Assembly (NCBI GenBank): GCA_003963235.1
Contig: RXKF01000009.1
Span: forward strand, 1 to 62,691
Direction: 5' to 3'
DNA from: Rickettsiales bacterium
GTDB taxonomy: Bacteria > Pseudomonadota > Alphaproteobacteria > Rickettsiales > Rickettsiaceae
DNA: 62,691 nt
The position numbers were made by a program, and so were the translations under genes. Under the pieces are notes generated by a model. It was not told where the DNA came from, ran no database searches, and saw only the letters and a program-made list of their open reading frames with translations. Shown here one piece after another: positions 39,952 to 62,388 of this stretch (position 1 is the first letter of the stretch; each line of letters opens with the position of its first letter).

Positions 39952-40560
39952 TTAAGCTGAGGTAATTGTCTGCCAGGCATTTTTATAGGTTCTAAGGACT
40001 GTGTTGGTAACATCAAAATAAGTGAACCCATTGACTTGGTTGGCAGCTACTTCAACGTTTCCCCTTGGCCCGGACGGATATACAAAAGGTGCTCCGTTAG
40101 TAAGACCGACTCCGGTAGCAGTAGTAGCAACCGTAAATAGAGTCATCCACTGGGTATTAATATATCCTCTGACCTGGTTATTGGTTGTATCATTATATAT
40201 AAACCCGTTTACCTGATTAGCAGCTACCTCAACTGCAGCTCTCGTGCCAGATGGAATGGAAAAAGGAGATGAAGATAAACCAACTCCGGTAGCAGTACTT
40301 ATATTTGTTGTAACACTTTCCCAACCCCCATTTCTAAACATTTGTAATTTATCAACGCTGATATTAAAAATGATAGTTCCTTCCTTTATTCTAACTGTTA
40401 CTCCATTTACTACGTAAGGAGTAACGTTTTGTAATAAATCTCTCTGAGCGGTAGTAACATTGCTAACGGCAAAGGTAGCGTTAGGATTATTAGTTCCAGT
40501 GGTTTGATCACTGGTAATAGTAAGACCGCTTAAAGCGGTAATATTTGATAAGTCTGCCAT
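39952..40560 (-). CDS. fibre-like protein with three intact G..F/YN....L....W repeats
   Basis: repeated EVAANQVNGF and ATGVGL blocks. Confidence 0.6.
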   Translation of the reverse strand: MADLSNITALSGLTITSDQTTGTNNPNATFAVSNVTTAQRDLLQNVTPYVVNGVTVRIKEGTIIFNISVDKLQMFRNGGWESVTTNISTATGVGLSSSPFSIPSGTRAAVEVAANQVNGFIYNDTTNNQVRGYINTQWMTLFTVATTATGVGLTNGAPFVYPSGPRGNVEVAANQVNGFTYFDVTNTVLRTYKNAWQTITSA

Positions 40561-40628: not shown

Positions 40629-41717
40629 TTATTTTTGAAAATTACATTTTTGAATAAATTGCTGTATCTTTATGGCATCCTGTCCATATTGGAGGTTTGC
40701 TTCAGATTTTAAATATGCTATAGCTTCCGGTGTTGGATTATCGAGTTTACTTAATTCCTGATCTGCAAGAAAACGTTGGAATCTGTAGTAAGATAGATTA
40801 TTTGTTGCGCCTTTATATAAAGACATCAGGTTAAATTGCATTTCTACTGCATCCGTTGCTCCATTTAACGTTAAATTCAAACTATTAGCAAGTAATCCGA
40901 GTCCATTATTAGGGGCTACTTTTAGGTTACCTGATGTTGTCGTTATTTCGATATCAGGATCAGAATATCCGGTACCGACTGAAAGAATGCAAGTTGCAAC
41001 ATTCTGCGGGAATAATATATTAGAGAATGCATAACCAAGGCTAGTTGGGTTGTTTTGATACAAACCGCCATCAATAAAGAAGGTATCAGAAGGCATGCCT
41101 TGGATAAGAGTTGGGCGAAAAAATACCGGCGCTGCACCTGTTGCAATAGCAACATCAATACAAGTATAATTTTGTCCGGTAGTAAAACCCGGAATTAAAA
41201 CATTAGAAAATTGATAATACTGGCTACTTGTAACATCACCATATGGAAAATTAACATTATCCGTGCTAGGACCGGTTCCACCTTGAAACCCTACAGCAGT
41301 AATCAAAGTATTAGTTTTTAATTGAAACATGCGAGTAGTCCCTAAAATAGGACTTAAAGCATCTCGGAGAGGTTGCTGATTGTAGATATAAGGATCAACT
41401 CCCGGAACTGCCAGCACAGTACCTAAAGTAGCAGACCCTGCCGGACCAAGAGGTTGCAAAGGGTTCACTCCTGCTCTAATAGTAAAAATGCTTGTTGCAT
41501 TAGTCGTTAGTAAATTAATGACGTCGGTAGGAGATAGACCAAGTGAGTAAGCCAAGCCTTGAATACCGCCAATACTTGTTCCACAAATAATATCAAAATA
41601 CTTCCATAATTCATTCCCTTTAATCCCGGCATCATTACAAAAATTCTCTAGAAATGTAGCAGAGAATAATCCTCTAATACCACCTCCATCTAAAGATAAG
41701 ATACGTATTACTTGCAT
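40629..41717 (-). CDS. patatin-like phospholipase
   Basis: DGGGIRG, GTSIG nucleophile elbow, AAP, DGG. Confidence 0.92.
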   Translation of the reverse strand: MQVIRILSLDGGGIRGLFSATFLENFCNDAGIKGNELWKYFDIICGTSIGGIQGLAYSLGLSPTDVINLLTTNATSIFTIRAGVNPLQPLGPAGSATLGTVLAVPGVDPYIYNQQPLRDALSPILGTTRMFQLKTNTLITAVGFQGGTGPSTDNVNFPYGDVTSSQYYQFSNVLIPGFTTGQNYTCIDVAIATGAAPVFFRPTLIQGMPSDTFFIDGGLYQNNPTSLGYAFSNILFPQNVATCILSVGTGYSDPDIEITTTSGNLKVAPNNGLGLLANSLNLTLNGATDAVEMQFNLMSLYKGATNNLSYYRFQRFLADQELSKLDNPTPEAIAYLKSEANLQYGQDAIKIQQFIQKCNFQK

Positions 41718-42183: not shown

Positions 42184-43650
42184 TTATAAACCTTTCAATT
42201 TCTGTTCCAGAATATCTACTTTCCCGGTTAACTCCTGAATGGCTAAAATTGCGTAGCAAAGAATAGTGTTATAATTAACACCTAGCGAAGGTATATGAGC
42301 CGGTTTTTCTTTTTTTGATAAATCCAGTGGTTTATATAGGTTAGTAGCATTATCGAAAATCTCTGCTACTTCTTCAGCTATGACTCCTATTTGCAATTCA
42401 TTCATTTTAAGCTGTTTCCGCATTCTTTTTTTAGTAGAGTCGGTTTTATTAATCGGATATTTTAGGCCGTAAGAATAAATATTAAGCTTATTTAATCTTT
42501 GCAGATAATCTTTGTGTTCTTTCTTGCGTATGCTATGTTTTTTGTCTTTAGAACAAGGGACGATTTGTCCAGAGCTGTTAATATAGGCTACATAACTGCT
42601 CATGCTTGAGTTATCTTCATCAGTAAAAATAAATCCAAGGGTATCCATTGGATTGATAAACTGCATAAAATCGCCGTTCATGACAATAGAAGAGGTCTCA
42701 CCGCCGGCATTGGTTTCTATAATAGTTGAGGTGATTGAGTTATAGACGTTTAGTCCTCTCATATCCAAATAATTACTGGCAGGGCGAATATAGCAATTAT
42801 AAGAAGGGTCATAAAATGAAGTTTTACCACTATTACCGGCAATATCCATCCGTTTGACACCGGCAGTACCGAATTTTAACGTGGCAGTTCCAGCTGCCCA
42901 GGCATATGCTTCATTAGTACTATTATTGAAACCAAACTCTGCATTAATAGTACCGTTGTTCTGCACGATAAGCCCTGCAGCTACAGCTGCCGGATTAGTA
43001 TTATTGACAATAAAACCACCGGCATTAGTAACGTTTGATGCATTAGTAGTAAACTGACGAGGATTTTCCCAAGTACCACTGCCATTTAAAAATAAGGAGC
43101 TATTTGCAGGATATCCGTTTAAACGGTCAATATTTAATTGACCGGTGGTATTCGTATTAATATCAAAGATTTTATTATCTACATAAATCTTGGTTGTTGC
43201 ATCCTGTGAATTAATAGGGTTAGTAATTCCCGAGAGACGATAGGAATTAAAATTGAATACTGTAGAATTGTTGGCTAAAGAAAAAACAGTACCAAATTGA
43301 CTACCGGAGTTATAACCAAAAGTAAAAGTATCTACTCCATTTGTCGGTGCGTAAAACTGAAACTCATAACCGGCTCCATTACCGGTATTAGCCCTATTCA
43401 TTCGGAGTTTCATGGTTTGATTAGCACTATTTGGAATAGTTAAATCATAATTAAAACTAGTATTAGAGCCTGTAAAATTAAATACTTGATTTCCTGTTCT
43501 TCCTATGGTCGATGCAAGAATTGCCGAGAGTGAATTACTTAAAACTCCAGAGCCGGTTATATCACCTGTGATATTAATATTTATATTGTTTACAAAATTT
43601 TCACTTGCAACGTTATACCAGCTACTTCCGTCAAAAAACTCAAGCTTCAT
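42184..43650 (-). CDS. distal tail fibre with C-terminal intramolecular chaperone (peptidase S74-like)
   Basis: DATTKIYVD; CS...K.SI, GVIAEEV, VNYN..L.Y.ILAIQEL coiled coil. Confidence 0.75.
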   Translation of the reverse strand: MKLEFFDGSSWYNVASENFVNNININITGDITGSGVLSNSLSAILASTIGRTGNQVFNFTGSNTSFNYDLTIPNSANQTMKLRMNRANTGNGAGYEFQFYAPTNGVDTFTFGYNSGSQFGTVFSLANNSTVFNFNSYRLSGITNPINSQDATTKIYVDNKIFDINTNTTGQLNIDRLNGYPANSSLFLNGSGTWENPRQFTTNASNVTNAGGFIVNNTNPAAVAAGLIVQNNGTINAEFGFNNSTNEAYAWAAGTATLKFGTAGVKRMDIAGNSGKTSFYDPSYNCYIRPASNYLDMRGLNVYNSITSTIIETNAGGETSSIVMNGDFMQFINPMDTLGFIFTDEDNSSMSSYVAYINSSGQIVPCSKDKKHSIRKKEHKDYLQRLNKLNIYSYGLKYPINKTDSTKKRMRKQLKMNELQIGVIAEEVAEIFDNATNLYKPLDLSKKEKPAHIPSLGVNYNTILCYAILAIQELTGKVDILEQKLKGL

Positions 43651-43675
43651 TATTTAAACCTATTTTATTTCTCTC

Positions 43676-44389
43676 CTAGAGACTGGTGTTAAATCTGAGC
43701 ATTCCGGCAGTTAGAGTAGATGGTCTCTGCACGGTTGTTCCAGTTGGAATGGTAACTGATGCAGTGCCGGGCAATACAGGGTTAGAACTAAGACTTATCG
43801 TTGCAACTCCATTAGTAATAGTAACAATTACTTGATTCGTAGTTCCTAAAATATTTGTAATACCACTTTGAGCTAATTTAGCAAAGGTAATGCTATCTGT
43901 CCCGACAGTTGCAACGGCTCCGGTAAGCATCCATGATGTTACGGCATTTACTGTTCCGCTAATTACATCGATAGTCTTACCTCTGACCATTTGGGACGGG
44001 GAATCAAAGTCGGTAGCTCTTGTTAATACCCAGTTAGTTGTAGTAGAACCAATATTAGTTACCGTATATATTCCGTTTTGTAAGGCTGCTGTCTGATCTT
44101 TAACTAGAACCCTGTTACCTGCAGCTAAAGTAACTCCATCAATAACAAGTGCTGCTTGTGTCCCTGAATTAGTTAAAGTAGCTCCCACCCCACTAGTACC
44201 ATTAGCATAAGTAGCCGTTAAATTGCTAGTCGTTGCTGCCAAAGTTGCAGGCACGCTACCTATGGTGTTTAAAACCCAGTTTTCAGTAGCAAGGGTAAAC
44301 CAGTTTGTGCCGTCAGTAATTTCCGGCTTTCCGGTAGATGTCGGTAACGGTGCTTTTAGATTCTTGTCATTTAATAAGTTATCAGTCAT
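43676..44389 (-). CDS. tail fibre segment
   Basis: IDGVTL..GNRVLVKDQT...QNGIY.V....WVLTRATDFD motif. Confidence 0.75.
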   Translation of the reverse strand: MTDNLLNDKNLKAPLPTSTGKPEITDGTNWFTLATENWVLNTIGSVPATLAATTSNLTATYANGTSGVGATLTNSGTQAALVIDGVTLAAGNRVLVKDQTAALQNGIYTVTNIGSTTTNWVLTRATDFDSPSQMVRGKTIDVISGTVNAVTSWMLTGAVATVGTDSITFAKLAQSGITNILGTTNQVIVTITNGVATISLSSNPVLPGTASVTIPTGTTVQRPSTLTAGMLRFNTSL

Positions 44390-44430
44390 TTTAAATCTCT
44401 TGTAATTAATTAATAAATTTTACCATAAAA

Positions 44431-46239
44431 TCAAAGTGAAGTATTAAACCTGATCATTCCGGGGATTAGGGTAGTTGGTCTTTGCATGCTGTTACCTGCA
44501 GGCATAGTCATTGAGCCATTACCAGTAAATGTCGGATTAGGTTTAAATGTCGTAACAATTGGCGTACTTAATAACCCGCTACCGGTTACATCTCCTTGGA
44601 GAGTTAATCCGGTATTTAAAAGGGTATTTAAATAAGTTTGAGCTTGGGTAGCACTGTTAGATGCATTCGTTGCCGATTCACTTGCGCTGCTTGCAGAATG
44701 ACTGGCATCAGAGGCACTCGAGGAAGCATCAGATGCCGAACTTGATGCACTACCTGCTGAAAGCCCAGCAGCAAGTGCTGAGCCGGCCGCTGCTCCAGCT
44801 GATATTCCTGCAGCTCCTGCAGAAGCACTAGCTTCGCCTGCGGCAGCGGTGGCTTCTGCTGCTGCTCCCGTAGCCTCTGTCGCCGATGCAGTAGCTTCAC
44901 CTGCACTCGTTGCCGCCTCGCCTGCTGCAGCTTCTGCTTCCTCCGCTGAAGCAGCAGCTTGTTCTGCGTACTGCTGGCATTGATCTCTAATTTCTTCTAA
45001 CTGCGCGACAGTTGCGTAATCCTCGCCTGCAATCGCAATTGCAAAGGCTCCGCCGGCAACAATCTTGGCCATGCCTATCCCTAGTTCCTCTAAAACCTGT
45101 GCTTCAGGTAAATTGACATTCGGAGTTTTTATGATGTAAGTAGCATCGGTTGGAGCAAGGTTTAACTGGACTTCGACCGGTCTATTTGCTGAGTCCCCTT
45201 GCCAGACTCTTCCATTAGTTAAGGATGGTAGGTTGGCAATATCTATAGTTTGACGTGCTTCTGGTACATTATTTAAACCTCCCATCAATAACTGATTTTG
45301 AGCAATAGTAGCAGCAACAATCGCTCCTGTTCCTGTGCTGCTCGTCTGCATCCAAGAACCGCTAGGGAGATTTGAGAGAAATTGTGAGCCAGGCATTAAT
45401 GTTTGCAGTACGCTGTTACCTTTTCCAAGAATAAAATTAGCACTAAAGAACCTAAAATTAATTAAGGCAATATCTCCTTCTACAACTAATAAAGCCGTAG
45501 ATTCTTCCGGTCTGTTGCTATCAGTACCGTGCCAGATTTTACCTCCTGAAATAACAATTGGATTAGTTGGATCAAGAGGATTAGGCACGTTAATGCTAGC
45601 AGTGCCTAAATTTGGTAGGTTATCAATGGTAATGGTTTGCTGCGCAGTTGCAATATTTGAGCTATTGCCTATGAATAATTGACCTGAAGGCAAGGTAATA
45701 CTTAAATAATCTTCTCCAGGGACAGCAATTTGTATAACGCCGTCTTTGTTCTTCATTAAACCATTATTTAGCTGATTTAAGGCTTGAGCGTTTGGAAGGT
45801 CAGAAGTTGGTTGTTGCAAGATATATGTAGCATCCTTTGGTGCTGATCCTCCGCCGGTATCTATAAACGATAGAATACCATTGCCGTTTGTTGCTATTAC
45901 CTGCCCGTTAGTTCCATCCTGCAGCGGTAATCTCCAGATTGTATTCCGGGTTAAATTACCGGCAGTAAAGCCAACATAATAATCATTAGAGGGATTACTC
46001 CATTTTAGCCTATTAGTAATAATATCTTCAGTATTAGTGATGCTCGCAGAGTTAATACCGGTTGCATATATTGTATAAAGCTCAGCAGTACCGCCGGTAA
46101 TAACAGGAGACAAAATACTTTCAAAACTAGCCTCTTTTGCATATAAATAGTTAATTGGGGTTAATCCTTCTCCTCTATTAGCTAACGCTATAAAAGCTGC
46201 TTTTTCTCTATCAAATCCCGGATTAAAATGATTAGCCAT
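44431..46239 (-). CDS. proximal tail fibre with Ala/Ser-rich coiled segment
   Basis: LP..DGTNGQV..TNG.G.LSF, duplicated DATYI...LPnAQ.L units, low-complexity A/S/E tract. Confidence 0.7.
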   Translation of the reverse strand: MANHFNPGFDREKAAFIALANRGEGLTPINYLYAKEASFESILSPVITGGTAELYTIYATGINSASITNTEDIITNRLKWSNPSNDYYVGFTAGNLTRNTIWRLPLQDGTNGQVIATNGNGILSFIDTGGGSAPKDATYILQQPTSDLPNAQALNQLNNGLMKNKDGVIQIAVPGEDYLSITLPSGQLFIGNSSNIATAQQTITIDNLPNLGTASINVPNPLDPTNPIVISGGKIWHGTDSNRPEESTALLVVEGDIALINFRFFSANFILGKGNSVLQTLMPGSQFLSNLPSGSWMQTSSTGTGAIVAATIAQNQLLMGGLNNVPEARQTIDIANLPSLTNGRVWQGDSANRPVEVQLNLAPTDATYIIKTPNVNLPEAQVLEELGIGMAKIVAGGAFAIAIAGEDYATVAQLEEIRDQCQQYAEQAAASAEEAEAAAGEAATSAGEATASATEATGAAAEATAAAGEASASAGAAGISAGAAAGSALAAGLSAGSASSSASDASSSASDASHSASSASESATNASNSATQAQTYLNTLLNTGLTLQGDVTGSGLLSTPIVTTFKPNPTFTGNGSMTMPAGNSMQRPTTLIPGMIRFNTSL

Positions 46240-50709: not shown

Positions 50710-51801
50710 TTAATTACCAAATACCACCACGGATACGCCATCAAGTACTGGGAGTAAATTACCGAGCGTATCAGTTGTAAAAATAATAAATTCAGTAGCA
50801 GATCTAGACCTAAAGAACACCTGAAACGGCGCTATGACCTCCGTTCCGCGTGCTAATGCCGGTAATACTAAATAATTACCATCAGGAAAAGGAGTAGCAA
50901 ACGTTATAACATATGACCCTTGCGCTCCGCTAACCGAGGCTATATTAAAGCTGCTCTCTATCTGGATATTATTAGTCGGGGCATTATTATCGTAAAAGAA
51001 ACAATAAGCTTTAGCAGTAGCAGGATTTATAATCTTTCCCGGTACTGTCATATTACCGACATTGTCAATTTGAGTACTATTTAAATTGATTACTCCATCA
51101 TCTACAGTAGCTAGGTTAATATCCTGATCTCCAATGGCCGTAGTAATGGTATTTACCGAGATTAAGAGATTACCTACATTAATACTGGATAATCCTACTA
51201 GAGAATCGGCTAAATTAATAATTACATCATTTGTTTCCCCATCGCCGCTTTGTACATTTATATTAGAGCCACCGCCTATTTTTCTGCTAACGTAGGAAAG
51301 CGGAGTATTACCGGTTATTACTAAAAACCCATTCTGTACCTGAGTAGCCAGATTATTTAAATTATTCAACGAATCGGCAATTTTAAAAATGATGTTACCT
51401 GTTGGTGGAGTAATAGTTGAGTTTGTGATCTGCAAGCTGTTATTCTGACTTTCCGTAGAAAAGCTTACTATACCGCTACTACCGCCCCCAAAAGGTATTA
51501 CCTGCCATATTCCCGTGCTGGTTAGATTCTCAGTTAGATATATCAGTATTACTTCCCCGGGAATAATTACGTTAGTTAGCGGCGTTCCATCGTTATATAA
51601 GAGGGTAAAGTCTTTTTGACCGACATTATTAAACAATAAGCTAGTACCGGTTTCTACAGTATTGGCAGGCGGCAAAGTAATTGTATATGCATCATTTTCA
51701 GAAATTACATTATTAATGTCACTAACAATCTCCCCTTCAGTGCGGGGATAAGGCCAGGATAGTTTAATATCGCTATTAAGTATGATTTTAGAATATGACA
51801 T
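50710..51801 (-). CDS. fibre-like structural protein
   Basis: ITLPPA..V.TG...LFNNVG; C-terminal SFNIASV....G.Y.ITF. Confidence 0.55.
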   Translation of the reverse strand: MSYSKIILNSDIKLSWPYPRTEGEIVSDINNVISENDAYTITLPPANTVETGTSLLFNNVGQKDFTLLYNDGTPLTNVIIPGEVILIYLTENLTSTGIWQVIPFGGGSSGIVSFSTESQNNSLQITNSTITPPTGNIIFKIADSLNNLNNLATQVQNGFLVITGNTPLSYVSRKIGGGSNINVQSGDGETNDVIINLADSLVGLSSINVGNLLISVNTITTAIGDQDINLATVDDGVINLNSTQIDNVGNMTVPGKIINPATAKAYCFFYDNNAPTNNIQIESSFNIASVSGAQGSYVITFATPFPDGNYLVLPALARGTEVIAPFQVFFRSRSATEFIIFTTDTLGNLLPVLDGVSVVVFGN

Positions 51802-53240: not shown

Positions 53241-53669
53241 TTACCTTGATACTTTTGATGGATTATCGACTAGCAGTTTGATTTTAAAATCCTCTACCAT
53301 AATTATCGGCTCACCCTCATATTTTGACTGCAATGATGAACCACGCGGGAATATGACCCAGTCTCCGGCTTTTACATAAGGACCGCTTGGAAACTGATCA
53401 CCCTTATAACTATCAGGACCCAGCTTTAATACCATCCCGACCATTGAGTTATATTCCAGATCATCTTGGACGGCGCTCGGTGGTTTTATAATTCCTCCTC
53501 TTGTAACCTCTTCGACAGGAGGTTTGTAAATAAGAATTAATACATTGATTCCGGTAACTGACACCTCTTTAAATCTCTCTATCATTGCTTCCTTATTAAA
53601 AGCTTCCAGATCAATGCCTTTGGTTTTAAAATCTTCCGGTTTGTAATTGGCTATTTGATGGTTAATCAT
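53241..53669 (-). CDS. phage co-chaperonin GroES-like protein
   Basis: TRGGII, VLKLGPDSY, VKAGDWVIF. Confidence 0.8.
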   Translation of the reverse strand: MINHQIANYKPEDFKTKGIDLEAFNKEAMIERFKEVSVTGINVLILIYKPPVEEVTRGGIIKPPSAVQDDLEYNSMVGMVLKLGPDSYKGDQFPSGPYVKAGDWVIFPRGSSLQSKYEGEPIIMVEDFKIKLLVDNPSKVSR

Positions 53670-58180: not shown

Positions 58181-59461
58181 ATGGTAATAAAAAAAGCATC
58201 AGTTGTTTTATTAGCAGGATTACTTGCAAGTAGCACGGCATTAGCCGGCGATCCGTTGCCTGTGGTATCAGATTTAAATATAAAACTTGGAGCATATGCT
58301 GCCTTTGAAAGTGGATTTAGCAATCAGGGTAAACTAAAAGGCTCAGAGAAGAATATATCAGCTAATAAAAGAGGTTTTGCTTTTTATAACGATACTGCTT
58401 TATTTGCTGCCATATCAAATACTACTGATGACATTACTTATGGTGCCAAGATTATACTAGTGCCTACAACTAAAAGAAAAGTTAACAAGGATTATAATGG
58501 TTCATACGTATTTTTAGAACATGAGTTTGGTCGAATTGAAGCCGGTTCACCTATTCCTGCTGCTAAGAATATGATGATAAGTGATGGATCCATACCGACA
58601 AAATACATCAAAACCGGGATAGATTACCTAAAACAAAGCACAAAAGCTGTACCCTCCTTTTTGACTTCGGAAGGGTCTTTCCTTGGTGACCAAATAATTG
58701 CAAGTATGGATTCTGCCACTTACAGTAGTGAACCGCCAAGAACAATAAATTATTATACTCCTAAGTTTGATTTAACCGATTCCAGTAAAATTAGGCTTGG
58801 TATATCCTATACTCCTGATTCTGCTAATACCGGCGTAGAAAAACCATCAGATAAATCAGACGGAATAAAAAAATATGCCGTAGGAGAGCCTACTATAGAT
58901 AGGTTTGAAATCGATAGATCAGTTAAAGATGCTGTAACTGGTGGGATGGTATTTGAGCAGAAACTAACGGAAGAAGCAGAATTAAAACTGGCTCTAACTG
59001 GTGAATACGGCAAATCTGCAGGTAAAATCAAGAAATTTGCTAATAAAGACGATCAGAATCCACTTGCATATAAATTAAGTGACTTAAAATCTTATAATAT
59101 TGGCGGCGAATTAAAGGTTGGTAATTTTAAATATAATGCCTGCTACAGCTCTTTCGGTAAAAGTTTAACTACAAAAGAATTACATAAAGGTAATCGTAAG
59201 TCTCAATACTATAATGCCGGTATTGCATATACTTACAATAAGGCTACGACAACCTCATTATCGTATTTTGCCTCAGAGCAGTTTAAAAATAAAGTAAACT
59301 CGGTAAAACTAGCCGTAAGTCACATACTTGCACCGGGACTAAAGCCTTATGCTGAAATACATGCCTATACTCTTAAAGGCAAACCTGAGTTCTATCCTAA
59401 TTTAAAGGCAAGAAAGGTAAAAGGTACTGTAGCTCTAGTTGGTGTTAAGCTATCTCTTTAA
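58181..59461 (+). CDS. rickettsial-type outer-membrane porin
   Basis: signal peptide (STALA), FGRIEAG, INYYTP, GISYTPD, PGLKPYAE, terminal beta strand. Confidence 0.75.
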   Translation: MVIKKASVVLLAGLLASSTALAGDPLPVVSDLNIKLGAYAAFESGFSNQGKLKGSEKNISANKRGFAFYNDTALFAAISNTTDDITYGAKIILVPTTKRKVNKDYNGSYVFLEHEFGRIEAGSPIPAAKNMMISDGSIPTKYIKTGIDYLKQSTKAVPSFLTSEGSFLGDQIIASMDSATYSSEPPRTINYYTPKFDLTDSSKIRLGISYTPDSANTGVEKPSDKSDGIKKYAVGEPTIDRFEIDRSVKDAVTGGMVFEQKLTEEAELKLALTGEYGKSAGKIKKFANKDDQNPLAYKLSDLKSYNIGGELKVGNFKYNACYSSFGKSLTTKELHKGNRKSQYYNAGIAYTYNKATTTSLSYFASEQFKNKVNSVKLAVSHILAPGLKPYAEIHAYTLKGKPEFYPNLKARKVKGTVALVGVKLSL

Positions 59462-59473
59462 ATTATTACTGAT

Positions 59474-60361
59474 ATGGAAAAACCGCTAATTAGCTTTGAC
59501 TACGCTATCAAATATCTACTAAAAGATAAAGGCGACTATGAAATAGTCGAAGGGTTTATCTCTGCCCTTCTTACCTCAGAAGGATATAAACCGGTTAAGA
59601 TAAAGGCCTTACTTGACGGCGAAAGTAATAAGGAAAGTAGATATTTAAAAAGAAGTATAGCCGATGTTATAGTTGAAGACGAACAAGGTAATAACTATAT
59701 AGTTGAGATCGATCGTGCTTATACTGATCTTTTTCTGAACAAAGCGATATTTAATACCTCAAGGCTAATCGTTGATAATCTCGGGGCAAATCAGGATTAC
59801 TTACAAATTAAAAAGGTATTCCATATCAATCTGCTATACTTCCCTTTTGAAAATACCAAAGCACCACTACATCACGGTAAGGTAATATTTCATGAGATAG
59901 ACCACACACATCCTGTAGATGTTCACTTAATAGATAGAGGAATGCATACATTTGATGCTCACAACATATTCCCTGAATATTTTATTGTTTCAATTCCTTT
60001 ATTTGATGATGTAATAAAAGAGGAAATCGACGAGTGGTTATATTTAATGAAGCACTCTGAGGTAAAAGAGGATTTTAAGTCTCCTTACATGCAGAAAGTA
60101 GCACAGCGTTTAAGTATATTAAAAATGACCAATCAGGAAAGAGAGATTTATGATAGCTATGTCATGGATTCTATGAAAGGTCGTGACTATATAATCTCCG
60201 CTGAGGCTAGAGGTGAAGCTAGAGGTGAAGCTAGAGGTGAGGTTAGAGGCATTGAAAAAACAGCCGTTAATATGTTAAAACAGAAAATAGATGATAAACT
60301 TATTGCTTCTGTCACTGGTTTTAGCTTAGAGGAGATAGCAAAACTGAAAAACAAGCTATAA
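59474..60361 (+). CDS. Rpn/PD-(D/E)xK nuclease family protein
   Basis: SFDYAIK, IADVIVED...YIVEI, EARG repeats, IASVTG.S.EEI tail. Confidence 0.85.
   Translation: MEKPLISFDYAIKYLLKDKGDYEIVEGFISALLTSEGYKPVKIKALLDGESNKESRYLKRSIADVIVEDEQGNNYIVEIDRAYTDLFLNKAIFNTSRLIVDNLGANQDYLQIKKVFHINLLYFPFENTKAPLHHGKVIFHEIDHTHPVDVHLIDRGMHTFDAHNIFPEYFIVSIPLFDDVIKEEIDEWLYLMKHSEVKEDFKSPYMQKVAQRLSILKMTNQEREIYDSYVMDSMKGRDYIISAEARGEARGEARGEVRGIEKTAVNMLKQKIDDKLIASVTGFSLEEIAKLKNKL
60203..60250 (+). repeat. 12-bp tandem repeat x4 (EARG/EVRG)
   Basis: GA(G/A)G(C/T)TAGAGG(T/C) x4. Confidence 0.9.
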
Positions 60362-60492
60362 TTTATAAAAAGTATTGTAAAGATTTGCTGTTGACTGATT
60401 AGGATAGTATGGTATCATCGCGGATGTATCTATGATTATCTCTTAAGTTAGTTTGATACATTTTTTTCATTAAGATACACCTAGAAAAAATT

Positions 60493-60533
60493 AAAAATGA
60501 ACTCTGTTTTTATTTTGCGGGGTTCATTTTTTT
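60493..60533. terminator. intrinsic terminator
   Basis: AAAATGAACTCTG...CGGGGTTCATTTTTTT. Confidence 0.65.
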
Positions 60534-60675
60534 AGGGTTCATCTTAAATTCCCATTTTTTAAATTTCTTAAAATTGATTAAGGAAAAGAGAGTAAAGATT
60601 TTATACATAACCTACCTTATGGAAAATAAAGGTTTATAAAAAGTTGAATATCAACGGTTTACAATCTCGTTTTTG

Positions 60676-62388
60676 CTACCTTCTAAAATCTCTAAGGCAA
60701 TGCCTTTGCAAGATATGAACTTCAGCAAAGTTACCTTCTTTAAAAGCCTTATATATTTCTTCATGGGACTCTACTATGGCTATCCCCAAGATTGGCTCAG
60801 AAACTAACAAATCTTTCATCTGTTCTAATGCCTTATCCTTCCAATCATCACGACACGATTCTTTATTATTATAATCGAAAAATAGATAATTATCGTCATC
60901 AAATATAAATCTAATTTCCTTTATACCCAATTTTATTCTTAAAATTAAGTATTCATTGGAATCGTCTGGAAAATGATGCCAAAATAACTTAACTATATTT
61001 TTTTCTCTTATTTTTGTACTATCACCTCTAATAGTATATTTCTTTTTTGGATCATTTTTACTTTGTGCAATTTCTATTATATCTCCTTTCTCCTTTAAAC
61101 GATTAAGTTTCATAATAACTGTGCGTCGACTTATATCCATAACTTGAGCAATTTGATGAGCACTTAATGATCCGCAAAAGGCAAGCAATTCAATAATAAA
61201 ACGATCGTTGATATCTATTACAATAGCGTCCTCTCTGGTTTTTTGTCTGTGAAATGTTACTTTAATACGTCCTCCTATAGCATCAAAATGCGGTGGCTCA
61301 AGACCAACTTCGAGGCAAGCTTGAATCATCCTTCCAATACCGCTTCCCCATTGTTCAATTAATCCGATTTCATTAAAAATTCGTCCAATAACAGGATTAC
61401 GTAATTTAGATATACCACCTACTTTTAAATCTTCTAAAGTGAGTGCGCCAAGTAAAACAGCATTATTCTCAATTTCTATCCTGTCATCAAATATACTTAC
61501 AGTAATTGGAGTACCACTGATTGAATAATCAGTATGAACAACTGCATTAATTATAGCCTCTCTTAAAGCAACTAGTGGTATATCGTCTAATAATTTCTGG
61601 TGGCGGACTTGTTTAATTACTAAAGAAACACGAGTATTTTTTTTTATATAATTGAGAGTCTCGTCTATTGCATTTGGCAAAAAAGAAGTAAATTGTTGAG
61701 TATCAAGTATTCTACTCTTATTGATTCCATCAAAAATTCCTACTTTTATAAATGCCCAAGGAAAGTACTTTAAGCGATTTATAGCAAATAATATAACGCC
61801 TCCATTAGTAGGTGTCTTGGCATTCTCAGCAAATATACCAAGTGTAACAAGATCATTAGTTTTTAATACCCTTTTATGTGCAAATAACTGTGTAACATCT
61901 GTGAATTTTATATCTTCACACTTAATATCATAACATAATTCTTCATCGAAAGATTTAGGAGAGATTGACCTTTCAATCACTTTTATTAGTTCTGAGTCAG
62001 CAGCTCTTGTTGAAGACCCAATACGAATATATGCTTGTTTTTCTTTTTGCTTATTACCTTTTATAAAATGGGGTCTTGTAATACTTGAGCAAATTTCAAT
62101 AAGTATTACATACATACTGCGATATGGTAAAATTTCTATTTCAAAATAAATTCTTGGTTCAATAATACTAGAAATTTTATTAGTAAGTATTTCTTCTGCC
62201 TTTTTGACATTTTTAACTCCAACTATATTACGCTCCTTATCTGAAACTCCAATTAAAAGTGTACCTCCTGAGCCATTAGCAAAAGCAACTATAGTAGCAA
62301 GAATCTTATCTATAGAATCTATATTTTCTTTGAATTCTAACTTTGACCCTTCATGTTGTTTTATTAAATCCTCAATCTTTTTGCTCAT
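60676..62388 (-). CDS. AlbA_2 (Schlafen-like) plus HATPase_c_4 plus wHTH protein
   Basis: EGSKLEFKE, AFANGSGGTLLIGV, ALREAIINAVVH.DY, RNPVI, EQWGSG. Confidence 0.85.
   Translation of the reverse strand: MSKKIEDLIKQHEGSKLEFKENIDSIDKILATIVAFANGSGGTLLIGVSDKERNIVGVKNVKKAEEILTNKISSIIEPRIYFEIEILPYRSMYVILIEICSSITRPHFIKGNKQKEKQAYIRIGSSTRAADSELIKVIERSISPKSFDEELCYDIKCEDIKFTDVTQLFAHKRVLKTNDLVTLGIFAENAKTPTNGGVILFAINRLKYFPWAFIKVGIFDGINKSRILDTQQFTSFLPNAIDETLNYIKKNTRVSLVIKQVRHQKLLDDIPLVALREAIINAVVHTDYSISGTPITVSIFDDRIEIENNAVLLGALTLEDLKVGGISKLRNPVIGRIFNEIGLIEQWGSGIGRMIQACLEVGLEPPHFDAIGGRIKVTFHRQKTREDAIVIDINDRFIIELLAFCGSLSAHQIAQVMDISRRTVIMKLNRLKEKGDIIEIAQSKNDPKKKYTIRGDSTKIREKNIVKLFWHHFPDDSNEYLILRIKLGIKEIRFIFDDDNYLFFDYNNKESCRDDWKDKALEQMKDLLVSEPILGIAIVESHEEIYKAFKEGNFAEVHILQRHCLRDFRR

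What the first reader, a model, noticed from the sequence alone, without database searches (positions are those of the whole stretch)
42184..46239. One fibre domain is split at the same point across three consecutive genes
Seen: gene 44431-46239 ends MPAGNSMQRPTTLIPGMIRFNTSL* and gene 43676-44389 ends IPTGTTVQRPSTLTAGMLRFNTSL*. The following genes begin ...TSTGKPEITDGTNWFTLATENWV and MKLEFFDGSSWYNVASENFV. Known: P.GT..QRP....GM.RFNT....E.YDG..W is normally one continuous fibre motif, and related intact units occur in 39952-40560. The gaps are 41 and 25 nt, in different frames, so simple readthrough is excluded. Inference: a plug-and-socket beta-complementation joint that chains separate polypeptides into an exchangeable modular fibre.
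Basis: partly seen in the sequence, partly recalled or inferred. Interest (0 to 1): 0.8.

Follow-up and report, generated by a model that had tools for sequence, protein, structure and literature searches.

The report
Split beta-prism joints chain phage fibres
Three neighbouring phage fibre genes stop and start at the same loop of a small protein domain that is normally made in one piece, in this phage and many relatives, so the separately made proteins likely clip together end to end by rebuilding that domain.

Summary
Confirmed. In a podovirus-like prophage, fibre genes A (44431-46239) and B (43676-44389) end with the first half of a common three-stranded fibre unit, and B and C (42184-43650) begin with the second half. 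The unit is continuous in 130 of 134 sampled viral copies. In 80 relatives found with B it is never continuous (0 of 151 copies; 143 stop exactly three residues after RFN). Gap length, frame and stop codon vary, and in one relative the halves lie 578 nt apart around another ORF, which argues against lesions and recoding. A 65%-identical relative has B fused to a tip with the unit intact. A 3+3 complex model rebuilds the sheet in the intact register (score 0.94, best control 0.08), possibly from likeness to known folds. Binding is predicted, not shown. 'Exchangeable' is only partly supported: swaps also fall inside genes. Plugs of successive joints can be identical, so order may be loose. The scan noted this joint before on other DNA (e1-6276410, e1-10040831). 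Four literature searches found no description.

The parts
44431..46239 (-). Gene A, 602 aa, likely proximal fibre protein; ends with the first half ('plug') of the fibre unit
   Evidence: (PHROG tail-fibre hits over the Ala-rich stretch 413-537, low complexity)
44434..44502 (-). Plug of A: P-x-G-x4-R-P-x5-G-M-I-R-F-N + 3 residues, then TGA
44390..44430 (-). 41-nt gap between A and B
43676..44389 (-). Gene B, 237 aa, middle piece: socket at the N terminus, a common phage fibre/decoration domain (about 45-175), plug at the C terminus
44300..44332 (-). Socket of B (residues 20-30, G-K-P-E-I-T-D-G-T-N-W), predicted beta-hairpin after a 19-residue lead-in
43679..43747 (-). Plug of B; invariant R222, G229, R232, N234
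43651..43675 (-). 25-nt gap between B and C
42184..43650 (-). Gene C, 488 aa, likely distal/tip fibre protein; begins with the socket
43618..43650 (-). Socket of C (residues 1-11); invariant E4, G8, W11
42346..42543 (-). Peptidase_S74 intramolecular-chaperone domain of C (residues 370-435)
   Evidence: PF13884 29.1 bits, cut-off 22
39952..40560 (-). 202-aa protein with weak, degenerate relatives of the unit; not part of the chain
40629..41717 (-). Patatin-like phospholipase that travels with the fibre cassette; not part of the joint

Best explanation
Genes A, B and C split one fibre domain at the same loop, and their separately translated products likely assemble as trimers that clip end to end by rebuilding that domain. 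Shown: the intact unit elsewhere runs plug-RFN-six residues-E-x-x-D-G-x-x-W, and the split leaves three residues after RFN on one gene and, in the shortest sockets, three or four before E on the next. Predicted: the intact unit is a three-stranded antiparallel sheet; strand 1 and the R-P loop come from the upstream protein, the strand 2-3 hairpin from the downstream protein, and three such sheets close into a beta-prism around the fibre axis, with R232-E4 and R222-W11 across the boundary. Inferred: A anchors the fibre, B is an extender with a socket and a plug, C is the tip that folds on its own with its S74 chaperone; the likely gain is independent folding of trimeric segments and the freedom to add, drop or replace segments. 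Where on the virion the fibre sits was not determined.
For: (1) Conservation: in 80 loci fetched with B (best 80 of 153; 51-99% identity), 0 of 151 motif copies are continuous; 143 stop at N+3, 7 at N+4, 1 at N+8; among 88 distinct copies the stops are TAA 42, TAG 26, TGA 20. (2) Separate translation: 150 of 152 distinct junctions have an in-frame ATG/GTG before the socket; stop-to-E distances take 53 values from 12 to 228 nt in all three frames, 36/59/57 (this set includes loci picked by a stop-at-N+3 pattern). (3) L452: the plug gene and the socket gene lie 578 nt apart with a 189-codon ORF between, and the same two proteins hold 3 intact units (2 in the plug protein, 1 in the socket protein). 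(4) Fusion: P0005 (682 aa, 65% identical to B over residues 12-237) continues through an intact unit into a tip region and keeps its N-terminal socket; MW202545.1 has one 853-aa fibre with an intact unit behind its tail adaptor gene. (5) Model of the intact unit: pLDDT 89.6, strands 33-36, 41-46, 49-52; the split falls in the turn between strands 1 and 2; N-to-E spacing is 6 in all 119 of 126 rows that the pattern could read. (6) Complex of B C-terminal 60 aa x3 with C N-terminal 40 aa x3: score 0.94 in three runs, best of 3 controls 0.08, runs agree in at least 95% of contacts, partner pLDDT at least 73; the mark was reached by 116 of 157 solved complexes and 2 of 215 mismatched pairs, counts that hold only roughly for this job; contacts are antiparallel 53-6, 54-5, 55-4, 56-3, 57-2, and 45-11. 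(7) Chains of four genes with three joints (L420, L412, L243) and different middle proteins (136-153 aa versus 226-248 aa) use the same joint.
Against: No binding experiment. The complex score may come from likeness to the intact fold, which is very common (25,992 representatives at E<=0.001) and resembles solved structures; only the B-C junction was folded, the A-B junction was not. Seven plugs sit inside proteins with no hairpin after them, 51-94 residues before a terminal plug (L243 x2, L270, L284, L358, L452, L462), so a plug can persist without an adjacent socket. Two terminal plugs have no visible socket in the downstream sequence held (L026, L358). Fold matches to solved beta-prisms are weak on their own (Foldseek E 0.05, VIA Z 4-5). 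Plugs of successive joints do not clearly encode order (identical at L438, 69 of 69 nt; median 13 of 23 aa over 67 pairs).
Confidence: 0.82

Rival explanations
1. The halves work alone: the plug is a C-terminal trimer cap and the socket an N-terminal hairpin, left over from an old gene fission, and A, B and C attach to the virion separately or by other surfaces.
For: Seven internal plugs without a hairpin and two orphan terminal plugs. Intact units also occur at protein ends (9d83_D 370-407 of 410; TSP3 583-624), so the unit can serve as an end cap.
Against: The invariant residues of the two halves (R, R of the plug; E, W of the socket) face each other in the complex model; a socket follows 192 of 210 plugs; in the B monomer model the plug end forms no strand (mean pLDDT 69.8, so weak).
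Confidence: 0.11
2. One continuous fibre chain is made by recoding or RNA processing: ribosome hopping, readthrough with frameshift, or removal of the gap from the transcript.
For: In some relatives the ATG follows the stop directly and in frame (L054, L072, L075), where readthrough would be possible. Two contigs carry a single in-frame stop at the same loop of otherwise intact units (L460, L461).
Against: All three stops, all three frames, 53 distances; the take-off codon recurs at the position that would restore intact spacing in 7 of 152 junctions (21 of 152 anywhere in E-1 to E-7); start codons are kept in 150 of 152. Lead-ins before the socket change by whole codons. L452 has 578 nt with an ORF between the halves. 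Contigs from RNA-labelled runs X15 and X16 bridge both gaps unspliced and no joint skips them (contigs only, may be DNA, rare spliced forms would be lost).
Confidence: 0.05
3. The breaks are recent lesions of a decaying prophage or assembly errors.
For: The window is a prophage in a fragmented assembly (88 contigs).
Against: The same breaks stand in 80 of 80 viral loci down to about 51% identity, in two other genomes of the genus (2 of 129 other genomes scored) and in contigs of independent runs.
Confidence: 0.01

Closest known systems
Beta-prism II module of phage spikes and fibres: CBA120 TSP4 anchor domain (PDB 7RFO, 7REJ, 7RFV), CBA120 TSP3 C terminus (5W6F), Bordetella phage Mtd N terminus (1YU0)
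   Same: Top fold matches for the intact-unit model and a weak sequence match to TSP4 54-79 (E 0.005). PMC8825819 (passages read) describes each subunit forming a 3-stranded antiparallel sheet and the three sheets forming a triangular beta-prism II.
   Different: There the sheet comes from one chain; here it is divided between two gene products. Matches are weak in E-value and Z.
Phage T4 long tail fibre gp34-gp35-gp36-gp37
   Same: A linear fibre made of several gene products; trimeric gp36 binds the N-terminal region of gp37 (PMC3004832, passages read).
   Different: The passages read do not describe one domain divided between the partners or one joint reused at successive boundaries; T4 uses a monomeric kneecap. 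No homology to gp34-37 was named in the PHROG scan.
Donor-strand complementation in chaperone-usher pili (recalled, no call)
   Same: Separate polypeptides are chained by completing a fold across subunits.
   Different: Ig-like monomers with an N-terminal donor strand and a chaperone/usher, against a predicted three-fold beta-prism rebuilt by two trimers, with one strand from the upstream C terminus and a hairpin from the downstream N terminus.
Branched receptor-binding protein systems (branching domain + conserved docking peptide) of Klebsiella podophages and CBA120 TSP1-4
   Same: A short N-terminal peptide docks a second receptor-binding protein on a first (PMC13352976, abstract read).
   Different: Those dock on a complete branching domain (gp10-like XD domains in TSP4) and give a branch; here the dock is half of a domain at the very C terminus and gives a predicted straight chain.

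Membership tests
Beta-prism II fibre module (TSP4 anchor / Mtd N-terminal type) | Three-stranded antiparallel sheet per subunit | tested here: met
   AF2 model of 126 intact homologues, pLDDT 89.6, three strands; predicted, and for intact relatives rather than the window's halves
Beta-prism II fibre module (TSP4 anchor / Mtd N-terminal type) | Structural and sequence likeness to solved members | tested here: inconclusive
   Foldseek 7rfo_A E 0.053, TM 0.64; VIA Z 5.0, rmsd 1.6, 40 aligned (5w6f_A); hmmsearch E 0.005: consistent top hits, weak scores
Beta-prism II fibre module (TSP4 anchor / Mtd N-terminal type) | Sheet made by one polypeptide | tested here: not met
   Split in 151 of 151 copies in 80 loci
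Beta-prism II fibre module (TSP4 anchor / Mtd N-terminal type) | Trimer closing into a triangular prism | tested here: inconclusive
   3+3 model is symmetric and confident, but the stoichiometry was imposed by me
Donor-strand-complemented pili | Ig-like fold lacking one strand | tested here: not met
   The unit is a 3-strand meander of about 40 residues
Donor-strand-complemented pili | Dedicated chaperone and usher | not tested
   No search was made; neighbours scanned are phage virion genes
T4-type multi-gene long tail fibre | Several gene products joined end to end in one fibre | not testable with these tools
   Supported by gene order and model only; needs a virion structure
T4-type multi-gene long tail fibre | Homology to gp34/35/36/37 | tested here: inconclusive
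   PHROG hits are generic tail-fibre families; no direct comparison with T4 proteins
Branched RBP system | gp10-like branching domain on the primary protein | tested here: inconclusive
   None reported for A, B or C in Pfam/PHROG or for the B model; A and C were not folded
Programmed translational bypass (T4 gene 60 type, features recalled) | Matched take-off and landing codons across a conserved gap | tested here: not met
   7 of 152 at intact spacing; 53 gap distances

The most novel reading that the evidence does not exclude
The joint is a universal connector with little built-in order: any plug accepts any socket, so the middle protein can be skipped or repeated (A-C, A-B-C, A-B-B-C), internal plugs and 42-61-aa socket mini-proteins add adaptors or side branches, and one phage genome makes a population of fibres of different lengths and tips.
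Probability: 0.25. Interest if true: 0.88.

Novelty: new variant of a known kind. Interest (0 to 1): 0.68.

Why it matters
It gives a sequence-level account of how separate trimeric fibre proteins can be joined in line, with a joint of about 23 + 11 residues that can be tested with short fragments. It raises a directly testable question: what sets segment order when successive plugs are alike or identical. A small three-fold connector could be useful for building modular trimeric proteins. It also warns annotators that such 'truncated' fibre genes are intact, conserved parts.

Tried and rejected
No other copy of A, B, C or the motif in the window's own genome. No Pfam family describes the intact unit (best: DUF7360 in 5 of 126 rows). 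No cultured phage record covers 80% of B (0 of 63 matching records). Fold search of the B monomer model found nothing at E<=0.001. Promoter/terminator scan gave nothing above shuffles and no site in either gap; folding of the gap regions gave no notable result and no control was run. Covariation across the joint: Pro at RP+3 of the plug goes with an aromatic at E+2 of the socket (40/21/10/38 over 109 pairs, odds ratio 7.2), but this follows junction class and kinship and is not counted as evidence. The top 150 profile hits held 611 intact of 619 motif copies and no terminal plug, but they were selected with an intact profile. The metagenome split-pattern scan returned many chance matches and no split family clearly unrelated to this one. 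Fusions of A with B were not searched for specifically; only 120 of 4,549 longer homologues of B were read, of which 1 (P0005) is a B-tip fusion. Literature searches without a description of this joint; passages of PMC12143355 and bioRxiv 10.64898/2026.03.06.709160 did not mention it; subscription papers and supplements were not seen. No paper was found for PDB 9D83/9D84. The host's taxon was not established.
Full report
Setting. The window is one whole contig of a 1.36-Mb, 30.9% GC assembly. The minus strand from about 58,000 to 37,000 holds a phage virion module: terminase (TIGR01630), SU10-type portal and adaptors, and a capsid protein 32-36% identical to those of HTVC023P, CRP-901/902 and related phages. 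The three genes lie behind an adaptor gene and a 147-aa gene. C ends with a Peptidase_S74 chaperone above the Pfam cut-off; B and C match tail-fibre PHROGs. They are therefore very likely fibre proteins; tail versus head position was not determined.

Observation. The termini and the 41- and 25-nt gaps are as reported. A profile of 126 intact copies finds 25,992 representative proteins. It matches the ends of A and B over its first 38 positions and, weakly, the starts of B and C over its last third.

Old and conserved, not a lesion. Eighty viral loci fetched with B (best 80 of 153) hold 151 copies; none is continuous, 143 stop at N+3, 7 at N+4, 1 at N+8, and all three stop codons are used. This set was not chosen on stop position. 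Two other genomes of the genus carry the split (2 of 129 scored, one genome not scored). The cassette sits in several different gene neighbourhoods.

Separate proteins, not recoding. Over 152 distinct junctions (including loci from a scan that required a stop at N+3) the stop-to-E distance takes 53 values from 12 to 228 nt in all frames; 150 have an in-frame ATG or GTG; the last sense codon recurs at the position needed for intact spacing in 7. Lead-ins in front of B's socket differ by whole codons. In L452 the halves lie 578 nt apart around a 189-codon ORF with no NCBIfam match. Contigs of RNA-labelled runs bridge both gaps and no joint skips them, a weak test since these are contigs and may be DNA.

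Where the cut lies. The intact unit is predicted as a loop with a short helix followed by three antiparallel strands. Its best matches are the CBA120 TSP4 anchor domain, the TSP3 C terminus and the Mtd N terminus, each weak; PMC8825819 (passages) calls the TSP4 element a beta-prism II formed by three 3-stranded sheets. Intact copies have six residues between N and E (119 of the 126 rows readable, all six). The split leaves three on the plug and three or four on the shortest sockets, so the cut is in the turn between strands 1 and 2. Two unrelated contigs show a lone in-frame stop in this same turn, which may be errors but show how such a fission could begin.

Do the halves meet? A natural fusion exists: P0005 is 65% identical to B, keeps the N-terminal socket and runs through an intact unit into a tip region. 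MW202545.1 has a single 853-aa fibre with an intact unit at a similar place in the gene order. The complex model of B's last 60 residues x3 with C's first 40 x3 scored 0.94 in three runs against a best control of 0.08, with at least 95% agreement of contacts and partner pLDDT at least 73; 116 of 157 solved and 2 of 215 mismatched pairs reached the mark in a calibration that fits this job only roughly. The register places invariant R against invariant E and the RP arginine against invariant W, as strands 1 and 2 would pair in the intact unit. Because the intact fold is common and partly solved, the pass may reflect likeness and does not show binding.

Results against. Seven plugs lie inside proteins with no hairpin behind them, and two terminal plugs have no visible socket downstream. 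Of the 18 plugs that missed the profile threshold, I read 14 by eye as having divergent sockets (outputs), one is L452, one is a chance match and two are those orphans. A plug can therefore persist alone; in L452 the sequence after the internal plug resembles that after the next gene's socket, which suggests an old fusion that lost the hairpin (inference).

Modularity. Among 61 distinct chains, the B cluster containing the window's B (85% linkage) occurs with three unrelated tip bodies and two kinds of A N terminus, and one tip family occurs with both 226-aa and 153-aa middle proteins. Four-gene chains with three joints occur, and in many loci the last socket is a 42-61-aa mini-protein followed by a separate tip gene. 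But exchange also falls inside genes: tip N- and C-parts mix, and the window's C has a 424-nt module just behind an unchanged socket that relatives lack. So exchange is real, but the joint is not shown to be its cause.

Order. The two plugs of one locus share a median 13 of 23 residues over 67 pairs, and are identical to the base in L438; in the window both end RFNTSL. Order may come from socket flanks, from coupled translation of neighbouring genes, or may be loose. This is the open and most novel point, and it is untested.

Comparison and verdict. It works like donor-strand complementation (recalled) and sits among multi-gene fibres such as T4 gp34-37 (PMC3004832, passages) and docking-peptide systems (PMC13352976, abstract), but is a member of neither by the features tested. 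Searches found no description; subscription papers and supplements were not seen. Earlier notes of this scan report what appears to be the same joint on other DNA; they are unchecked and not counted as evidence, and one gave the TSP4 lead that I then tested. Verdict: real, conserved, a new variant of a known kind; joint 0.82; interest 0.68.

Noticed in passing
window 40629-41717: A patatin-like phospholipase lies within the fetched stretch in 54 of 61 fibre chains (the 7 without are stretches of 7.2 kb or less), upstream of A in some backbones and downstream of C in others. Phage WO has a patatin cassette next to its tail module (PMC9203015, passages). Best NCBIfam match is the CBASS phospholipase model, below cut-off.
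   Followed up: partly
L027 3839-4024; L031 3595-3780; L062 5785-5919; L071 724-852; L082: 42-61-aa mini-genes that carry only a socket and a short acidic/hydrophobic tail, followed by a separate tip gene; likely adaptors using a second, different kind of joint.
   Followed up: partly
L243, L270, L284, L358, L452, L462: Internal plugs without a hairpin, 51-94 residues before a terminal plug, most followed by a Pro-containing linker: relics of fusion or possible branch points.
   Followed up: partly
window 44333-44353 and relatives: B-type sockets are preceded by L-P-x-P-x-G, which resembles the start of the intact unit; the first joint may have arisen by duplication and reciprocal loss rather than a simple stop-start (unverified).
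   Followed up: no
L288: Two socket-bearing ORFs (59 aa and more than 231 aa) follow a single plug: alternative tips or a remnant.
   Followed up: no
window 43168-43591: A 424-nt module of C directly behind the socket helix is replaced by 13 nt in relatives.
   Followed up: partly
window 53241-53669: Phage-encoded Cpn10 (GroES-like) gene in the head module.
   Followed up: no
window 50710-51801: A further fibre-like virion protein (363 aa; PHROG 11355) between the head genes, without the motif.
   Followed up: no
window 1-30000 and 58181-62388: Flanks hold host-type genes (TrpRS, EamA-type transporter, Rpn transposase) that look Rickettsiales-like by recall only; a block at 5439-8137 (FAD oxidoreductase-like and radical-SAM-like ORFs, by eye) lies in low-GC DNA.
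   Followed up: no
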